DNA from: a virus
Lineage: Duplodnaviria > Heunggongvirae > Uroviricota > Caudoviricetes
Reading direction: 5' to 3' (one strand)
IMG/VR virus record: IMGVR_UViG_2698536647_000012
Length of the DNA: 18,232 nucleotides
This document shows positions 8,730-16,010 of the stretch, piece after piece. Position 1 is the stretch's first letter, and the number at the start of each line of letters is the position of its first letter. A program made the position numbers and the translations under genes. The notes below the pieces were generated by a model that was not told the DNA's origin, ran no database searches, and worked only from the letters and a program-made list of their open reading frames with translations.

Positions 8730-8770
8730 AGATCAAATGTACAACCAAGGTTTTATTTCATCAAACGAAA

Positions 8771-8806
8771 ATGGTTGTTGACTAAAAACAACCATAGTTT
8801 TAATCT
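8771..8806 (+). promoter_or_regulatory. OR/pR: palindromic operator ATGGTTGTTGACTAAAAACAACCAT overlapping -35 TTGACT, 17-bp spacer, -10 TAATCT
   Basis: Perfect 25-bp palindrome with GTTGTT/AACAAC half-sites covering a near-consensus sigma70 promoter aimed at the cro-like gene (start 8834, SD GGAGG). Confidence 0.65.
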
Positions 8807-8833
8807 TGATTCGGATTAACCACGGAGGTTGTT

Positions 8834-11887: not shown

Positions 11888-11916
11888 TTGACAATTGTTA
11901 CTGAGTCTTGTAAGAA
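11888..11916 (+). promoter_or_regulatory. Candidate sigma70 promoter for the NACHT NTPase gene (-35 TTGACA, 17-bp spacer, -10 TAAGAA)
   Basis: Consensus -35 hexamer with 17-bp spacing to an A/T-rich -10-like hexamer in the AT-rich leader. Confidence 0.35.
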
Positions 11917-11951
11917 TGCACCACGTATTGGTTAATGAATGTGGTGAAAAA

Positions 11952-13847
11952 ATGGATGAGTTTCTTGCGACTATTATTAATAGCACAGTAGGAAAAGCTG
12001 CGGAAAAAATAACAGAAGTATTGCTCTCTAAACCTTGGGCTAGGGACCTAGATGAAGGCAAGGTTATACTCGAACAATTAAATGATCCCCTCGGAAGAGA
12101 AAATTATTTAAGAAAGCATGTGCTACCATCTCTGAAAATGAGAACTTTGCACAACGCTGATTATGATATTTTTTTAGATGATATTTATTATCCGTTAACT
12201 GTTGAGGTGGCATCTAATAAAGACAAGGTCGTTATAAAAGATGGGGTCACTTTACCATTTCATGGTATTGTAAATATAGTCGGTATAGCGGGGCAAGGGA
12301 AAAGTACTATTTTACGCAAGTTGTTTAGCGAGGAAATAAAAAAATCAGAACGGATGCCTTTTTTTATTGAATTAAGAAGGGTGAAGAATGCAAATATTAT
12401 TGCTTATCTGGCAGACATTCTTAATTCATTTGGTGTGGGGTGTTCAGAGGATAGCTTGAAAATATTACTGCAATCCCAAAGAGTCGTTTTAATGTTGGAT
12501 GGATTTGATGAGGTTAAACATGAAGAGCGAACTATGATGATGAATGAAATAAAAAACATTCATTATCATTTTAACACACCAATTATCGCAACAACGAGAC
12601 CAAATACAGATATATGTTATACTACTGATGTGTATAATATTTTTATAGATAAGCTAAATATTTCTGATAAGATTTGTATTCTTCATTCTTTATCGAAAAA
12701 TGACAGATTCTCAAGTAGTGATGCCTCGTTTAAAGTCTTGGCGGATTTACTATGTGATAAAGAAGAACTTGAGGGAACTATTTGCAATCCAATTTTAGTT
12801 ACTCTTTTGTATTATTGTTATCCTTATATGAATGATATTCCAAATAATATAATAGAGTTTTATCGAAGCCTCTTTGACACCTTATATGCAAGGCATGATA
12901 AAATAAAAGTATATACGCGCGAGAAAAAATCAAACATTATTGGTGAAAAAGCTAAATTGTGTTTTTCAGCTATTTGCTATAACGCACTGATTGAGGAGAA
13001 ATTTGAGTTTTGGGGAGAGGAGTTGCTTAGATATGCTGAAGATGCTATTGAAACAGAAGGTTATCTTAAAGAAGATGCATCAAACTTTATAGATGATCTT
13101 ATTGAGATAACTTGCCTTATCCAACCTGAGGGAAATAATAGGTATGTTTTTCTGCATAAATCAGTGCAAGAATTTTATGCTGCTTTTGCGGTAGCAAATT
13201 TACCGATTGAGTATAAAAAAGATATATACGAAAATCTTATGGTGGCTATTAAATGCTCTGAACAGTTAGATAACTTCATGTTGTTTTTACATTCACTAGA
13301 TTCCAAAGCATTTATAGATGAAATCACAATAAAAGCTTCTCGTGATATGGGGGTTGTAGATGTCGCAAACATGACGAGAGAGAGAGTTGAGAATGTTTTT
13401 GACTCGGCACTAAGTAGAGTATTTATCAAAGGCAACTCGACATCGAATGACTCAGTGATTTCGCTTCATTACGACTTTGTATTAGGTTCGCTCTTAGGTA
13501 TTGATATTCTACCTATAATGTCTGGAAAAGAACGAGTTCCTATGACAGAAATTGATTTGATTTTTGACGACCTTTTTTCATGCACGATGGATAAGGGTGA
13601 GTTAAACTTATACAAATTTGAAGTTAAAAAACAAAAAAATAATATTGATACTGATGTTCAGACTGATGATTATTTATTTCCCTTGGTGGATTATCTTAAG
13701 GTCAGGGGGGTTTATGGTTTGATGCTGGATACTTACCATCAGACAATTAAGGATTTTTATGATAGATATTATCAACCAGCTTATGATTCGAATCTTCGAA
13801 GAACACTAGCAATGGGAAGAAATTTCAAGTTAAAGAAAAATAATTAA
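11952..13847 (+). CDS. NACHT-type STAND NTPase (bacterial NLR-like protein), candidate anti-phage defence protein
   Basis: Walker A GIAGQGKST; Walker B of the NACHT type (VVLMLDGFDEV); sensor-1-like IIATTRP; NPxL-type segment (CNPILVTLL); winged-helix signature YVFLHKSVQEFYAAF. Start placed at the second in-frame ATG (MDEFLAT...); the track ORF begins at a TTG at 11895. Sits in a visibly AT-rich island. Confidence 0.85.
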   Translation: MDEFLATIINSTVGKAAEKITEVLLSKPWARDLDEGKVILEQLNDPLGRENYLRKHVLPSLKMRTLHNADYDIFLDDIYYPLTVEVASNKDKVVIKDGVTLPFHGIVNIVGIAGQGKSTILRKLFSEEIKKSERMPFFIELRRVKNANIIAYLADILNSFGVGCSEDSLKILLQSQRVVLMLDGFDEVKHEERTMMMNEIKNIHYHFNTPIIATTRPNTDICYTTDVYNIFIDKLNISDKICILHSLSKNDRFSSSDASFKVLADLLCDKEELEGTICNPILVTLLYYCYPYMNDIPNNIIEFYRSLFDTLYARHDKIKVYTREKKSNIIGEKAKLCFSAICYNALIEEKFEFWGEELLRYAEDAIETEGYLKEDASNFIDDLIEITCLIQPEGNNRYVFLHKSVQEFYAAFAVANLPIEYKKDIYENLMVAIKCSEQLDNFMLFLHSLDSKAFIDEITIKASRDMGVVDVANMTRERVENVFDSALSRVFIKGNSTSNDSVISLHYDFVLGSLLGIDILPIMSGKERVPMTEIDLIFDDLFSCTMDKGELNLYKFEVKKQKNNIDTDVQTDDYLFPLVDYLKVRGVYGLMLDTYHQTIKDFYDRYYQPAYDSNLRRTLAMGRNFKLKKNN

Positions 13848-13931
13848 ATTGATAGTTACAAAGAGACAGCTAATTATAAGTTTCTAACAGTTGAAAAATT
13901 AATTGTAAGTAGGCAATATTAATAAGCCGGA

Positions 13932-14029
13932 GCCTGAACAACTCCGGTGACTTCTGCGCTAAACGGGGACGTTTATGCGCACATACAATCCAACCTATCT
14001 TCTCCATTCACAGATGCAGAAATGCACCT
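13932..14029. repeat. Copy A of a ~100-bp bipartite repeat (conserved ends GCCTGAACA.C.C.GGTGACTTCTGCGC and CACAGATGCAGAAATGCACCT, variable middle)
   Basis: Both conserved blocks recur about 1.48 kb downstream with the same spacing (about 77-78 bp). Confidence 0.6.
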
Positions 14030-14281
14030 ACGATTTTTTACATTCGGTGTTTTACTTCGACAGCCAGAATTGGGAGTCTCTATTCGTCTGGCGGCTAAAG
14101 GTGATATGGAAATCGTTATGTTTTGGCCTGAGGTAGTTGTAACTGTTGTAGCAGCTATGGCTGTGATCATCATGGTGTCCATTTACTGGGGTTGACGACA
14201 TGATTTATCTGGGGATATATTCTGTGCGTTGCCGCAAAATCGGCACACGGGATTGGCGTCCCGGAATACTACTCAACGCAT

Positions 14282-14303
14282 ACCGCGTTAAGCGGTTTTT
14301 TTA
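14282..14303 (+). terminator. Candidate intrinsic terminator (ACCGC-gttaa-GCGGT then T7)
   Basis: 5-bp stem and 5-nt loop followed by TTTTTTT on the plus strand, upstream of the Roi-like gene. Confidence 0.4.
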
Positions 14304-14458
14304 TGCGCTAAGCACGGCTACGCCCAAATTATGGTGGGCTGTGTGAGGGCTTCTTCGGGAGCGCCGGATTTGAGTAGCCGGTTACGCCAACCTTGCACAG
14401 TTCACCACCAGTCGATTGGCGTCGTTGGTGGTGATGGTTAACCTGATGAGGTGAAACT

Positions 14459-15073
14459 ATGACTACTCAATTAGCATTCCACAAAACGACGTTTACCCCA
14501 ATTTGCCACAATAACAGAATTTGGCTTACTGCCACTGAAGTTGGTTTAGCTCTGGAATATGCGGACGATAAAGCAGTTCAGCGCATTTACTCTCGTCACT
14601 CAGATGAATTTACAGATATGATGACAAGGGTGGTCAAAGTGACCACCCCTCGTGGAATGCAGGACTCTCGAGTATTTAGCCTTCGCGGAGCCCATTTGAT
14701 CGCCATGTTTGCACGAACTCCTGTAGCCAAAGAGTTCCGCCGCTGGGTTCTGGATATTCTCGATCGAGAAGTTCAACAATCCCCGATCACAAAACAATTC
14801 ACTGATAACGAACTTTGCACACTTGCTTGGTTATGGCGAGCTGGGGATGCGATGTTAACCGCCTGCCAGAACGTTACTCCTCTTCTTCAGGTTGCGGAGC
14901 ATCGTGAAGCTGGTCGCTTCACTTCCATCGAGCAAGAATATCCCCAGATACTCACCAGAGCGCGAGCAATCCTCGCCAGAGAAACGGCACATGTAAAATT
15001 CCAGCCGTGGCAGGATGATAAGTGGAGTCGAGTATTGCCACATTTGCGTCAGAATGTTATTAAACAACGTTAG
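14459..15073 (+). CDS. Bro-N domain protein (Roi / antirepressor-like DNA-binding protein)
   Basis: 204-aa ORF with Bro-N-type N-terminal features (RIWLTATEVGLALEY..., ...FRRWVLDIL). SD GAGGTGA upstream. Position between the replication and nin genes, as for HK022 roi. Confidence 0.65.
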   Translation: MTTQLAFHKTTFTPICHNNRIWLTATEVGLALEYADDKAVQRIYSRHSDEFTDMMTRVVKVTTPRGMQDSRVFSLRGAHLIAMFARTPVAKEFRRWVLDILDREVQQSPITKQFTDNELCTLAWLWRAGDAMLTACQNVTPLLQVAEHREAGRFTSIEQEYPQILTRARAILARETAHVKFQPWQDDKWSRVLPHLRQNVIKQR

Positions 15074-15132
15074 CTACTGTGTCTCTCCAATTTAGCTAAC
15101 ATATGGATTCATAAGAAAAAGGAGCTTTTGCC

Positions 15133-15384
15133 ATGATGTCCTTCACCAAATGTAAATTAATGCACAGCCATAAAACTAGCGTAAATGCAGCGCTCTTGGA
15201 CGATACGAAATTAGTTGTAGAGAGGGATCTCCATTTTCTTCGTGAGTTATACATATCAAGCCCAGAAGAATTTGTCGGACATTGGGTTTATGCAAATGAG
15301 CCAATATTTCATGAACATCCACTGTCTGTTGGCCTTTCTGGTATTGTCTATCACAAGGTTATTGATGAAATTGAAAAATCATAA
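15133..15384 (+). CDS. Hypothetical protein (83 aa)
   Basis: ATG with SD AAGGAG about 8 nt upstream; same strand and context as the Roi-like gene. No family recognised. Confidence 0.5.
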   Translation: MMSFTKCKLMHSHKTSVNAALLDDTKLVVERDLHFLRELYISSPEEFVGHWVYANEPIFHEHPLSVGLSGIVYHKVIDEIEKS

Positions 15385-15412
15385 TCAATAAGCAATAATA
15401 CCGTCACCGTTG

Positions 15413-15511
15413 GCCTGAACACCCTGCGGTGACTTCTGCGCATATGATTGGGAAATTATATGCGACCACAAGTTAAACTCCTCGCCTTGCCACAGATGCA
15501 GAAATGCACCT
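15413..15511. repeat. Copy B of the ~100-bp bipartite repeat
   Basis: GCCTGAACACCCTGCGGTGACTTCTGCGC ... CACAGATGCAGAAATGCACCT; matches copy A at both ends with a divergent middle. Confidence 0.6.
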
Positions 15512-15554
15512 GCGATATTTTGCATCCAGCGTTTGACCTCTGCGGAGGTGAAGC

Positions 15555-16010
15555 GTGAACCTCCCACAAGACGGCATCAAATTACATCGCGGTAACTTCA
15601 CCGCTATCGGTCGGCAGATCCAGCCTTATCTGGAGGACGGTAAATGCTTTCGCATGGTGCTTAAACCGTGGCGCGAGAGACGCAGTCTTTCCCAGAATGC
15701 ACTCAGCCACATGTGGTACAGCGAAATCAGTGAATACCTCATCAGCAGGGGTAAAACGTTCGCCACTCCAGCTTGGGTAAAAGATGCTCTCAAACACACT
15801 TATCTCGGTTATGAAACCAAAGAACTGGTTGATGTCGTAACCGGTGAAATCACCACCATTCAGTCATTACGTCATACCTCCAATCTTGATACCGGAGAGA
15901 TGTATGTCTTCCTGTGTAAGGTTGAAGCCTGGGCGATGAATATTGGCTGCCACCTGACTATTCCGCAGAGCTGCGAGTTCCAGCTGCTCCGCGACAAGCA
16001 GGAGGCGTAA
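15555..16010 (+). CDS. ybcN: NinB/Orf-family recombination protein (YbcN-like)
   Basis: 151-aa ORF with GTG start and SD GGAGGTG. Contains the NinB-like RSLSQN motif. Gene order ybcN-ninE-ybcO-rusA-ylcG-Q matches the DLP12-type nin region. Confidence 0.65.

What the first reader, a model, noticed from the sequence alone, without database searches (positions are those of the whole stretch)
13925..15545. Roi-like two-gene module bracketed by two copies of a ~100-bp bipartite repeat
Seen in sequence: GCCTGAACA(A/C)C(T/C)C..GGTGACTTCTGCGC and, about 77 bp later, CACAGATGCAGAAATGCACCT(A/G)CGAT occur at 13932-14029 and again at 15413-15511 with the same spacing and orientation, but with a divergent middle. 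They bracket the Bro-N/Roi-like gene and an 83-aa ORF, and sit directly after the NACHT island and directly before ybcN. The conserved blocks are not conserved as protein in any frame, so the signal is at nucleotide level. Inference: these could be module-boundary sequences used for homologous exchange of cargo cassettes (the classical explanation of lambdoid mosaicism), cis-regulatory elements shared by two units, or small RNA genes.
Basis: seen in the sequence. Interest (0 to 1): 0.5.

Follow-up and report, generated by a model that had tools for sequence, protein, structure and literature searches.

The report
Duplicated structured leader of the prophage nin operon
The two repeats are diverged copies of a widespread but uncharacterised promoter-plus-folded-RNA leader (with a tiny upstream reading frame) that normally heads the ninB/ybcN-to-Q operon of lambda-like prophages; here a second copy also heads an inserted anti-repressor cassette.

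Summary
The repeat is real: both blocks recur 1482 bp apart, with none expected by chance. Each copy is longer than reported, about 170-200 bp (13891-14063 and 15369-15567).

Each copy holds five parts:
- a sigma-70-like promoter;
- hairpin HP1 with a conserved loop (CCUGAACAA);
- hairpin HP2, with a Shine-Dalgarno GGGA loop and the start codon in its 3' arm;
- a short ORF, equivalent to phage 82 orf33 and K-12 ylcH;
- hairpin HP3a, which is block B, with a GAAA loop followed by a U-tract.

All three stems keep pairing through compensatory changes across Escherichia and Klebsiella phages. In relatives the ORF stop overlaps the ninB/ybcN start in 138 of 148 elements, but its codon positions vary evenly, so the peptide itself is not selected.

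Copy 2 is the normal leader of ybcN. Copy 1 is a different allele that heads a hydrophobic ORF, isrK, C4 and an anti-repressor. This two-copy layout recurs in 6 of 7 other two-copy viral loci.

The element also borders a variable cargo slot and shows internal reassortment. No Rfam family matches it. The mechanism I propose, a translation-coupled attenuator, is inferred and untested.

The parts
13891..13920 (+). Copy 1: promoter-like site TTGAAA-N18-AATATT. It is degenerate: the palindrome seen in relatives is lost here.
   Evidence: Consensus scan, 9/12. Aligns with the TTGATT-N17-CATAAT site of relatives.
13926..13948 (+). Copy 1 HP1: GCCGGAG / loop CCUGAACAA / CUCCGGU. This is the core of block A.
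   Evidence: MFE fold. Family-wide covariation: 12/12 pairs change on both sides, 88% of cells paired against 64% in shuffles.
13956..13980 (+). Copy 1 HP2: GCGCUAAACG / GGGA / CGUUUAUGCGC. The Shine-Dalgarno-like sequence is in the loop and the ATG (13975) is in the 3' arm.
   Evidence: Ten distinct stems in the family, 98% paired, 9/11 pairs with double changes. Phi80 annotates the equivalent as IR4.
13975..14136 (+). Copy 1 leader ORF remnant (53 codons). The first ~27 codons are homologous to orf33/ylcH; the 3' end has diverged and is not coupled to a ninB-type gene.
   Evidence: The ORF is broken or frameshifted in sister loci L031, L119 and L041.
14008..14039 (+). Copy 1 HP3a (block B): CAGAUGCA-GAAA-UGCACCUA followed by U6. 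The hairpin is weakened by a G-to-A change at its base.
   Evidence: -4.4 kcal/mol; family covariation.
14106..14195 (+). 29-codon hydrophobic ORF (MEIVMFWPEVVVTVVAAMAVIIMVSIYWG) with an AAGGTGA Shine-Dalgarno sequence. It matches the C-terminal half of phrog_4612.
   Evidence: E 1.7e-16. Intact in sister loci L032, L041, L031/L119 and L002; truncated in L112.
14192..14302 (+). isrK promoter (TTGACG-N18-TATATT) and isrK sRNA with its terminator (14230-14302). Carries the b1/a1 targets of C4.
   Evidence: Rfam RF01394, 60.7 bits; promoter and terminator scan; RF03163 c4-a1b1 below threshold; complementarity.
14327..14412 (+). C4-type antisense RNA. Loop a' is UUGAGUAG (14370-14377) and b' is ACGCCAA (14384-14390).
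   Evidence: Rfam RF01695, 72.4 bits.
14459..15073 (+). Anti-repressor (Bro-N + P22AR_C) gene. C4 targets b2 (14415-14423) and a2 (14463-14470) lie at its ribosome-binding and start region.
   Evidence: Pfam; PHROG anti-repressor Ant.
15133..15384 (+). orf83, variable cargo in the slot to the left of copy 2 (phrog_9613, unknown function).
   Evidence: This position holds different genes in sister loci.
15371..15399 (+). Copy 2: promoter-like site TTGAAA-N17-AATAAT with a near-palindrome TTGAA-N8-ATCAA.
   Evidence: (10/12).
15403..15433 (+). Copy 2 HP1: GUCACCG...loop with CCUGAACAC...CGGUGAC (block A).
15439..15464 (+). Copy 2 HP2: CGCAUAUGAUU / GGGA / AAUUAUAUGCG, with the ATG (15460) in the 3' arm.
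15460..15558 (+). Copy 2 leader ORF (32 codons, ylcH/orf33 type). Its TGA stop overlaps the GTG start of ybcN (GTGA).
   Evidence: (RefSeq CDS).
15490..15522 (+). Copy 2 HP3a (block B): CAGAUGCA-GAAA-UGCACCUG followed by CGAUAUUUUG. Terminator-like.
   Evidence: Terminator scan; -8.1 kcal/mol; covariation.
15555..16010 (+). ybcN (NinB/Orf superfamily), the first gene of the ybcN-ninE-ybcO-rusA-ylcG-quuD operon served by copy 2.
   Evidence: NCBIfam PRK09741; RefSeq annotation.

Best explanation
Each repeat is one copy of a conserved 5' control region of lambdoid prophages. It has five parts:
- a sigma-70 promoter carrying an operator-like palindrome;
- a stem-loop at or next to the predicted 5' end of the transcript (HP1, loop YCUGRRCAA);
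- a second hairpin (HP2) that shows the Shine-Dalgarno sequence in its GGGA loop and holds the start codon of a 31-33-codon leader ORF (orf33/ylcH) in its 3' arm;
- a third hairpin inside that ORF (HP3a, which is block B, GAAA loop) followed by a U-tract;
- a leader stop codon that overlaps the start codon of the first nin gene.

Copy 2 is the ordinary leader of ybcN-ninE-ybcO-rusA-ylcG-quuD. Copy 1 is a different allele of the same element. It heads an inserted cassette made of a hydrophobic small ORF, isrK, a C4 antisense RNA, an anti-repressor and cargo. In copy 1 the hairpins are kept, but the leader ORF has lost its coupling.

Shown here: homology, hairpin covariation, the ORF frame with start/stop coupling, promoter geometry, recurrence of the two-copy layout, and mosaic junctions.

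Inferred, not shown:
- The promoter fires just before HP1, which then acts as a 5' stabiliser and/or binding site.
- HP3a plus the U-tract is a leaky terminator. A ribosome translating the leader would melt it, giving translation-coupled attenuation and then translational coupling into ninB/ybcN.
- Because the element is conserved, it also serves as a crossover patch, which is how two alleles came to bracket the cassette.
For: Homology and earlier annotation:
- Copy 1 is 93% identical to the phage 82 orf33 region. There the depositors annotated a putative -35/-10, a 'possible regulator-binding site' (equivalent to HP1), an RBS and orf33.
- K-12 DLP12 has the same element, with a 33-codon CDS abutting ybcN.
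- Phi80 annotates HP2 as IR4.

RNA structure:
- HP1: 46 distinct sequences, 88.2% of cells paired against 64.1% in shuffles (0/500). All 12 pairs have changes on both sides. Slid controls give 29-49%. There are many U-G pairs, so the + strand is the folded one.
- HP2: 98.1% paired, 9/11 pairs with double changes, slid controls 17-49%.
- HP3a: 96.2% paired. The Klebsiella lineage has three compensatory pairs with the GAAA loop kept. Three loop-swap variants keep the stem.
- Folding z-scores are -3.6 to -5.3 for canonical copies.

Leader ORF:
- It is 31-33 codons in 102/108 elements, and its stop overlaps the next start in 138/148.
- Substitutions by codon position are 12:13:14 in the leader against 18:11:61 in ybcN.

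Promoter:
- TTGAnn-N17-nATAAT occurs in 103/128 elements. The spacer ATCAA is 97-100% conserved.
- Gifsy-1 has the same promoter plus HP1 directly before the first gene of the antQ operon. PMC4825925 cites a mapped start 1,600 nt upstream of antQ; the -10 predicts about 1,606.

Terminator-like site:
- The consensus scan reports one at block B in copy 2 and in phage 82.
- rusA, downstream in DLP12, needs insertions that supply a promoter to be expressed (PMC4118853).

Two-copy layout:
- Six of seven other two-copy loci repeat element / hydrophobic ORF / isrK / C4 / ant / variable cargo / element / ybcN.
Against: - No transcript ends were measured for this element. The Gifsy-1 start site is a rounded literature figure, and that relative lacks HP2 and HP3.
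- HP3a is modest (-7 to -13 kcal/mol). In the E. coli lineage a longer alternative hairpin (HP3b) that swallows the U-tract is the MFE once the tail is included. L031/L119 even show a compensatory pair for HP3b. Termination is therefore uncertain.
- The copy 1 promoter is degenerate in this window (9/12, palindrome lost), and its HP3a is weakened (-4.4 kcal/mol).
- The loop-anchored alignments used for the HP1 and HP2 counts were assembled by a script that picked the best stem, which leans towards the structure.
- Most sequences were ascertained through exact matches to parts of the element.
- The factor that would bind the palindrome or the HP1 loop is unknown.
Confidence: 0.7

Rival explanations
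1. Pure recombination linkers: the blocks are kept only because they mediate homologous exchange of cassettes between lambdoid phages, and they have no function of their own.
For: The left flank is hypervariable: 63 neighbour families in 138 elements. HP1, HP2 and 3'-end types are reassorted in all four-gamete combinations. Relaxed Red-beta recombination between diverged nin regions has been shown experimentally (PMC3945230).
Against: Compensatory changes keep three hairpins intact on unrelated stem sequences. Promoter geometry, the Shine-Dalgarno loop, the start codon position and the stop/start overlap are all conserved. A homology patch needs none of these.
Confidence: 0.08
2. Duplicated small protein gene: the repeat is two copies of ylcH/orf33, and block B is conserved because the peptide (QMQKCTC motif) has a function.
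For: An ORF in the same frame exists in both copies and in 102/108 relatives at 31-33 codons. RefSeq annotates it as a CDS.
Against: Substitutions are flat across codon positions (12:13:14) while ybcN shows 18:11:61. The Klebsiella lineage changes QMQKCTC to PMAKATG exactly at the compensating stem positions. Loop swaps give QMLNGTC. Sister copy-1 alleles carry a stop or a frameshift yet keep the hairpins. There is no Pfam, NCBIfam or PHROG family for it.
Confidence: 0.07
3. Trans-acting small RNA gene: promoter to HP3a/U-tract yields a stable RNA of about 125 nt (by analogy with lambda oop or 6S RNA) that acts on other targets.
For: A promoter-like site and a terminator-like site lie about 125 nt apart. 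A structured 5' hairpin is present. ylcH RNA is listed as changing without ybcN in one K-12 transcriptome (PMC8910356).
Against: The element always sits immediately before a ninB-type gene. It has an in-frame uORF whose stop overlaps that gene's start (138/148), and the next gene's Shine-Dalgarno sequence lies inside the uORF. These are features of a cis leader. No target complementarity was found, and the element is not in Rfam. The two roles are not mutually exclusive.
Confidence: 0.12
4. DNA-level operator: the HP1 inverted repeat is a binding site for a dimeric regulator on double-stranded DNA, as suggested in the phage 82 record.
For: Annotated as a 'possible regulator-binding site'. It lies just downstream of the putative promoter.
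Against: The arms vary freely and covary while the centre is conserved, which is the opposite of a protein operator. Frequent G-U pairs would be A-C mismatches on the other strand. By contrast, the upstream TTGAT-N8-ATCAA palindrome does look like an operator.
Confidence: 0.03

Closest known systems
Phage 82 orf33 region / E. coli K-12 DLP12 ylcH-ybcN intergenic region (X92588; Mahdi et al. 1996)
   Same: Directly homologous: copy 1 is 93% identical over 126 nt and copy 2 is 81%. It has the same putative -35/-10, inverted repeat, RBS and 33-codon ORF overlapping orf151/ybcN.
   Different: Phage 82 and K-12 have one copy; the window has two different alleles 1482 bp apart. The record treats the parts as putative DNA and protein features. 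The RNA hairpins and their covariation are not annotated there.
Leader-peptide transcription attenuators in which the leader ORF overlaps the terminator (pyrBI type)
   Same: A short translated leader ORF runs through a hairpin followed by a U-tract, upstream of the structural gene, so a closely following ribosome could prevent hairpin formation.
   Different: No regulatory codons or pause signals were identified. Termination is untested. The start codon is itself sequestered in HP2, and the leader is also translationally coupled to the next gene by ATGA/GTGA overlaps. This is a functional analogy only, not membership.
Gifsy-1 antQ-operon promoter region (Salmonella; PMC4825925)
   Same: It has the same -35-N17-CATAAT promoter followed at the same distance by a hairpin with the identical CCUGAACAA loop, in front of the nin-to-Q operon. 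A transcription start is reported there. The same paper describes the isrK-orf45-anrP unit found between the window's repeats.
   Different: Gifsy-1 lacks HP2, the leader ORF and HP3a. Its isrK-anrP unit lies downstream of Q, not upstream of the nin genes.
P1/P7 immI (c4 antisense RNA - icd - ant)
   Same: This applies to the interior of the bracketed module, not to the repeats. There is a C4 RNA above the Rfam threshold, paired a/b target boxes on both sides of it, and an anti-repressor gene downstream.
   Different: The upstream targets lie inside an isrK-type sRNA with its own promoter and terminator, and there is no icd. The bracketing repeats have no counterpart in P1.
Moron / module-boundary sequences of lambdoid phages (Susskind-Botstein modules; Hendrix-type morons)
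   Same: It is a conserved patch at a mosaic junction with unrelated cargo on one side, and there is evidence of crossovers within it.
   Different: Here the patch has its own conserved promoter, RNA structure and uORF, so function explains its conservation and exchange is a by-product.

Membership tests
orf33 / YlcH small-ORF family (phage 82, DLP12) | ORF of 31-33 codons starting in the 3' arm of the GGGA-loop hairpin | tested here: met
   Copy 2 has 32 codons at 15460-15558. Copy 1 starts at the homologous ATG (13975) but runs 53 codons with a diverged 3' end.
orf33 / YlcH small-ORF family (phage 82, DLP12) | Stop codon overlapping the start of a ninB/ybcN gene (ATGA/GTGA) | tested here: met
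   In copy 2, TGA 15556-15558 overlaps GTG 15555 of ybcN. The overlap holds in 138/148 relatives. It is not met by copy 1.
orf33 / YlcH small-ORF family (phage 82, DLP12) | Amino-acid sequence under purifying selection (a real protein family) | tested here: not met
   Substitutions by codon position are 12:13:14 against 18:11:61 in ybcN. Replacements at compensating stem positions are non-conservative.
Sigma-70 promoter | -35 and -10 hexamers with 17 +/- 1 spacing, conserved in relatives | tested here: met
   (103/128 elements with TTGAnn-N17-nATAAT).
Sigma-70 promoter | Mapped transcription start | not testable with these tools
   There is only an indirect, rounded literature value for the Gifsy-1 relative.
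Intrinsic terminator / leader attenuator | Stem-loop followed directly by a U-rich tract | tested here: met
   The consensus scan reports it for copy 2 and phage 82. With the extra U-A and C-G pairs the stem abuts UUUU. Copy 1 has U6 but a weak stem.
Intrinsic terminator / leader attenuator | Hairpin maintained by selection | tested here: met
   96.2% of cells paired. Three of seven pairs have double changes. Slid controls give 22-42%.
Intrinsic terminator / leader attenuator | Termination that responds to leader translation | not testable with these tools
   Needs Term-seq, in vitro transcription or reporter fusions. A competing longer hairpin (HP3b) is predicted in the E. coli lineage.
5'-terminal stabilising stem-loop (ompA type) | Hairpin within a few nucleotides of the transcript's 5' end | tested here: inconclusive
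   The stem base lies 3-7 nt after the -10 hexamer in the aligned elements. The start site itself is only predicted.
Any Rfam 15 family | Covariance-model match over the repeats | tested here: not met
   Nothing on the repeats at gathering threshold or at E <= 10.
nut (boxA/boxB) or put antitermination RNA | Position just downstream of PL/PR, boxA next to the hairpin or a paired two-stem put fold, and specificity matching the phage's N | tested here: not met
   The element lies in the nin region, after the replication genes. No boxA was seen by eye next to HP1. The same loop is shared by phi80, HK639, phage 82 and Gifsy-1. HK639 carries it at about 42.3 kb, in front of ninB.
P1/P7 c4-ant antisense unit (interior of the module) | C4 RNA, a/b target boxes on both sides of it, and a downstream anti-repressor | tested here: met
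   RF01695 at 72.4 bits. Targets b1/a1 at 14252/14269 and b2/a2 at 14415/14463 are complementary to the C4 loops. The Ant gene is confirmed.
Lambdoid module-boundary sequence | Conserved patch between unrelated flanks, with crossovers inside it | tested here: met
   63 upstream families in 138 elements. The four-gamete test is violated for HP1 x HP2 and for HP2 x 3' end.

The most novel reading that the evidence does not exclude
The element is an undescribed three-hairpin riboregulator. Together with an operator-like palindrome and an unknown factor that reads the invariant HP1 loop, it gates N-independent transcription and translation of the nin-to-Q operon, and therefore entry into late gene expression. 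A paralogous allele of it gates an anti-repressor cassette. If so, a large share of enterobacterial lambdoid prophages would carry a second, RNA-based checkpoint on induction.
Probability: 0.25. Interest if true: 0.65.

Novelty: new member of a known kind. Interest (0 to 1): 0.4.

Why it matters
The element is very common. Up to 2961 of 5426 complete E. coli genomes match the query region, and K-12 DLP12 is among them. It also occurs in Klebsiella, Enterobacter and, in part, Salmonella phages.

It sits at the entry to the operon that ends in the late-gene antiterminator Q, and in this window it also precedes an anti-repressor. Parts of it were noted in 1996 (phage 82) and in the phi80 record, but it has no Rfam model, and the limited literature searches run here found no functional study.

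If it is a real promoter plus attenuator, it would help explain three things:
- why rusA and Q of cryptic prophages stay silent;
- how nin genes can be expressed without N;
- why accessory and defence cargo accumulates just upstream of it.

For annotation, it shows that ylcH-type 'hypothetical proteins' are better treated as leader ORFs inside a structured RNA.

Tried and rejected
- Rfam, at gathering threshold and at E <= 10: nothing on the repeats.
- RNAalifold on a plain MAFFT alignment recovered only HP3a. HP1 and HP2 stems differ in length and register, so the alignment was not structure-consistent. I replaced it with loop-anchored, ungapped alignments.
About a fifth of the GGTGACTTCTGCGC loci, and about half of the unique GATGGCGAAAGCCACC matches, were also unrelated and were filtered out by profile or by context.
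- The idea that the prophage's CI/Cro binds the promoter palindrome was rejected. The immunity-region operators here (ATGGTTGTT..AACAACCAT) are unrelated, and the palindrome is shared by phages of different immunity.
- FNR was rejected for TTGAT-N8-ATCAA because the spacing is wrong (N4 is required; from my own knowledge).
- boxB/nut, put and RfaH-ops resemblances for HP1 were considered and dropped on grounds of position, lack of boxA and inconsistency among variants.
- Complementarity between the HP1 loop and C4 or isrK is only 5 nt, so it was dropped.
- Literature: ylcH has no functional paper in the library. The phi80 genome paper and the E. coli TSS paper are not held. No supplementary tables are held for two small-protein studies.
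- PADLOC gave no hit for the NACHT gene, Ant or orf83.
- I did not build a covariance model or scan genome contigs.
Full report
**1. The observation**

- Block B (CACAGATGCAGAAATGCACCT) is at 14009-14029 and 15491-15511, with no mismatch. No other match with up to 3 mismatches exists, and none appeared in 200 shuffles.
- Block A is at 13932-13959 and 15413-15441.
- Both blocks are offset by exactly 1482 bp.
- The similarity is wider than reported. A pairwise alignment runs from a promoter-like site to about 30 nt beyond block B. A profile built from relatives matches 13892-14063 and 15369-15567.

**2. What the unit is homologous to**

- The closest database relative of copy 1 is the start of the phage 82 nin-region record X92588 (93% over 126 nt). 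That record annotates a putative -35/-10, an inverted repeat described as a 'possible regulator-binding site', an RBS, and orf33, whose stop overlaps orf151 (ybcN).
- K-12 DLP12 has the same arrangement, with a 33-codon CDS directly before ybcN.
- A RefSeq genome 99.8% identical to the window annotates the copy-2 ORF as a CDS.
- Phi80 annotates the second hairpin as IR4. HK639 and phi80 carry the element in front of their NinB/PRK09741 gene.
- Up to 2961 of 5426 complete E. coli genomes match some part of the 13850-15600 query. In an evenly spaced sample of hits, most are a single element in front of ybcN. Only 9 genomes contain the whole two-copy region.

**3. Anatomy, read from about 180 distinct elements collected from viral contigs and phage records**

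(i) Promoter.
- TTGAnn-N17-nATAAT occurs in 103 of 128 unique E. coli-lineage elements.
- The spacer bases AATCAA are 97-100% conserved. With the -35 they form a palindrome, TTGAT-N8-ATCAA, with conserved arms and a variable centre. That pattern fits a protein operator.
- The Klebsiella lineage has a different palindrome at the same place.
- The window's copies score 9/12 and 10/12 in the consensus scan.

(ii) HP1.
- It starts 3-7 nt after the -10 hexamer.
- There are 48 different stems, with a median of 9.5 uninterrupted pairs. A stem of 8 bp or more arises in 0.5% of shuffles.
- The loop is almost invariant: YCUGRRCAA.
- On a loop-anchored ungapped alignment of 46 distinct sequences, 88.2% of cells pair, against 64.1% in shuffles (0/500) and 29-49% when partners are slid. 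All 12 pairs show changes on both sides. U-G pairs are frequent, which identifies the + strand as the folding strand.

(iii) A conserved linker, GACUUCUGCGC.

(iv) HP2.
- It has a GGGA loop, which is Shine-Dalgarno-like.
- There are ten unrelated stems, and an ATG or GTG always lies in the 3' arm.
- 98.1% of cells pair, and 9 of 11 pairs have double changes.

(v) A leader ORF.
- It is 31-33 codons in 102 of 108 elements.
- Its TGA overlaps the start codon of the next gene (ATGA/GTGA) in 138 of 148 elements. That gene is YbcN-type in 96 and NinB-type in 34.

(vi) HP3a, which is block B: CAGAUGCA-GAAA-UGCACCUG, followed by CGA and a U-rich run.
- The Klebsiella lineage reads CCGAUGGC-GAAA-GCCACCGG. 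That is three compensatory pairs, with the same loop and the same A·C mismatch.
- Four loci replace AGAAAU with UUA(A/U/G)CG while keeping the stem.
- Across 19 distinct variants, 96.2% of cells pair, against 22-42% when slid.
- The consensus scan calls the site terminator-like in copy 2 and in phage 82.
- Predicted stability is -7 to -13 kcal/mol.

**4. Coding or RNA?**

- The open frame and its stop/start overlap are conserved, so translation of the leader appears to be selected.
- The peptide itself is not. Within the phage-82-type group, substitutions fall 12:13:14 on codon positions 1, 2 and 3, while the adjacent ybcN shows 18:11:61.
- The compensatory changes in HP3a turn QMQKCTC into PMAKATG. 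The loop swaps give QMLNGTC.
- No Pfam, NCBIfam or PHROG family covers the ORF.

**5. Why there are two copies**

- The copies are not a recent tandem duplication. They are different alleles, with HP2 type 'a' in copy 1 and type 'c' in copy 2. Copy 1 is closer to phage 82 (93%) than to copy 2 (about 79-81%).
- Seven viral loci also have two copies, 1.9-4.1 kb apart.
- In six of them the order is the same as here: element, hydrophobic small ORF (intact in five, truncated in L112), isrK, C4, a 201-202-codon anti-repressor, then different cargo in each locus, then a second element and ybcN.
- The upstream allele forms its own lineage. It has G-to-A changes in HP3 and a 3' end that leads into the hydrophobic ORF. 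Its leader ORF is not maintained: there is a TAG stop in L031/L119, a frameshift in L041, and 46-53 codons elsewhere. HP1, HP2 and HP3 persist.
- I read this as each gene block carrying its own copy of the same control region.

**6. Boundary role**

- The gene immediately to the left of the element belongs to 63 unrelated families in 138 elements. It usually ends within a few tens of bases of the -35.
- In the window these left neighbours are the NACHT gene (copy 1) and orf83 (copy 2).
- HP1 types, HP2 types and 3'-end types occur in all combinations. For example, HP2 'a', 'b', 'd' and 'k' each occur with both the GGAGGTGAAGCGTGA and the AGGAGGCCGTATGA ends. Crossovers have therefore occurred in the conserved blocks A and B.
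- Relaxed homologous recombination between diverged nin regions is documented (PMC3945230).
- The 'exchange boundary' idea is thus true as a consequence of conservation.

**7. Mechanism (inferred)**

- A relative gives indirect support for the promoter. Gifsy-1 has TTGACT-N17-CATAAT followed by a hairpin with the identical CCUGAACAA loop, directly before the first gene of the antQ operon. PMC4825925 states that the antQ start site was mapped 1,600 nt upstream of antQ. The -10 predicts about 1,606.
- In DLP12, expression of rusA needs insertions that supply a promoter (PMC4118853). That fits a repressed or attenuated native leader.
- I propose the following sequence of events:
  - Transcription starts at the base of HP1. 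HP1 protects the 5' end and/or binds a factor through its invariant loop.
  - HP2 limits initiation on the leader.
  - If no ribosome follows the polymerase, HP3a plus the U-tract terminates the transcript.
  - If the leader is translated, the hairpin is melted, and the terminating ribosome reinitiates on ninB/ybcN.
- Caveats:
  - In the E. coli lineage a longer hairpin (HP3b) that includes the U-tract is the MFE. It has one compensatory pair in L031/L119.
  - HP3b is not supported by the Klebsiella lineage or by the loop-swap variants.
  - None of these steps has been measured.

**8. The interior of the module**

- Rfam finds isrK (14230-14302) and C4 (14327-14412).
- The C4 loops UUGAGUAG and ACGCCAA are complementary to AUUGGCGUC and CUACUCAA. 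Both targets occur inside isrK, and again at the ribosome-binding and start region of the Bro-N/P22AR_C gene.
- This is the P1/P7 c4-ant logic and the Gifsy-1 isrK-orf45-anrP unit.
- The gene is Ant/AnrP-like by PHROG.

**9. Verdict**

- The element is a real, common and partly annotated leader that has not been characterised. It belongs to a known kind: promoter, structured 5' UTR, upstream ORF and attenuator-like hairpin.
- I score interest as moderate (0.4), because the function is inferred and the parts were noticed before.

Noticed in passing
window 14230-14470: The interior carries a complete C4-type antisense unit. isrK holds the b1/a1 boxes (14252-14260, 14269-14276). The C4 loops a' and b' are at 14370-14377 and 14384-14390. 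The b2/a2 boxes (14415-14423, 14463-14470) sit on the ribosome-binding and start region of the anti-repressor gene.
   Followed up: yes
window 14106-14195 (possibly from AUG 14022): A 29-codon, very hydrophobic ORF with a strong Shine-Dalgarno sequence matches the C-terminal half of phrog_4612 (57 aa, unknown function). The 57-codon version would start at an AUG inside HP3a of copy 1. The ORF is intact in five of the six sister ant-module loci and truncated in L112. It might be a small membrane protein or toxin-like peptide.
   Followed up: partly
window 15371-15388; relatives such as L001 50-67 and L126 2469-2486: There is an operator-like palindrome, TTGAT-N8-ATCAA, across the -35 and spacer. 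The spacer half-site is 97-100% conserved. The Klebsiella lineage has a different palindrome (ATCCCC-N4/5-GGGCGAT) at the same position. The binding factor is unknown, and the site is unrelated to this prophage's CI operators at 8740-8810.
   Followed up: partly
window 11895-13847: A 650-codon NACHT/NB-ARC-type NTPase gene fills the cargo slot to the left of copy 1. It replaces the truncated ren region, and its right end runs into the promoter of copy 1. It has no PADLOC model hit.
   Followed up: partly
L169 (Gifsy-1) 36590-36660, minus strand: A short version of the element (promoter plus HP1 with the identical CCUGAACAA loop, no HP2, leader or HP3) precedes the first gene of the antQ operon, where the literature reports a transcription start.
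   Followed up: yes
L100 6816-11114: This two-copy locus has different contents. The first element is followed by a truncated ybcN-like start, then genes of 380, 620 and 84 codons, then a second element. It looks like a cassette inserted just inside ybcN with duplication of the leader.
   Followed up: no
L031 / L119 copy 1 (for example L119 10348-10539): A C-to-U change in block B creates a TAG stop in the leader frame. It is matched by a G-to-A change 24 nt downstream that restores pairing in the longer alternative hairpin HP3b. This is a hint that HP3a and HP3b may be alternative conformations.
   Followed up: partly
K-12 ylcH (L126 2553-2654): A published K-12 transcriptome table lists ylcH RNA as 2.03-fold up under microaerobic conditions, without listing ybcN (PMC8910356). 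This is compatible with a short leader transcript, but the evidence is weak.
   Followed up: no
window 13949-13959 and 15431-15441; relatives after HP3: The motif UUCUGCG occurs both in the conserved linker after HP1 (GACUUCUGCGC) and again after HP3 in many alleles (GCAUUCUGCGG/GUU). It is unexplained.
   Followed up: no
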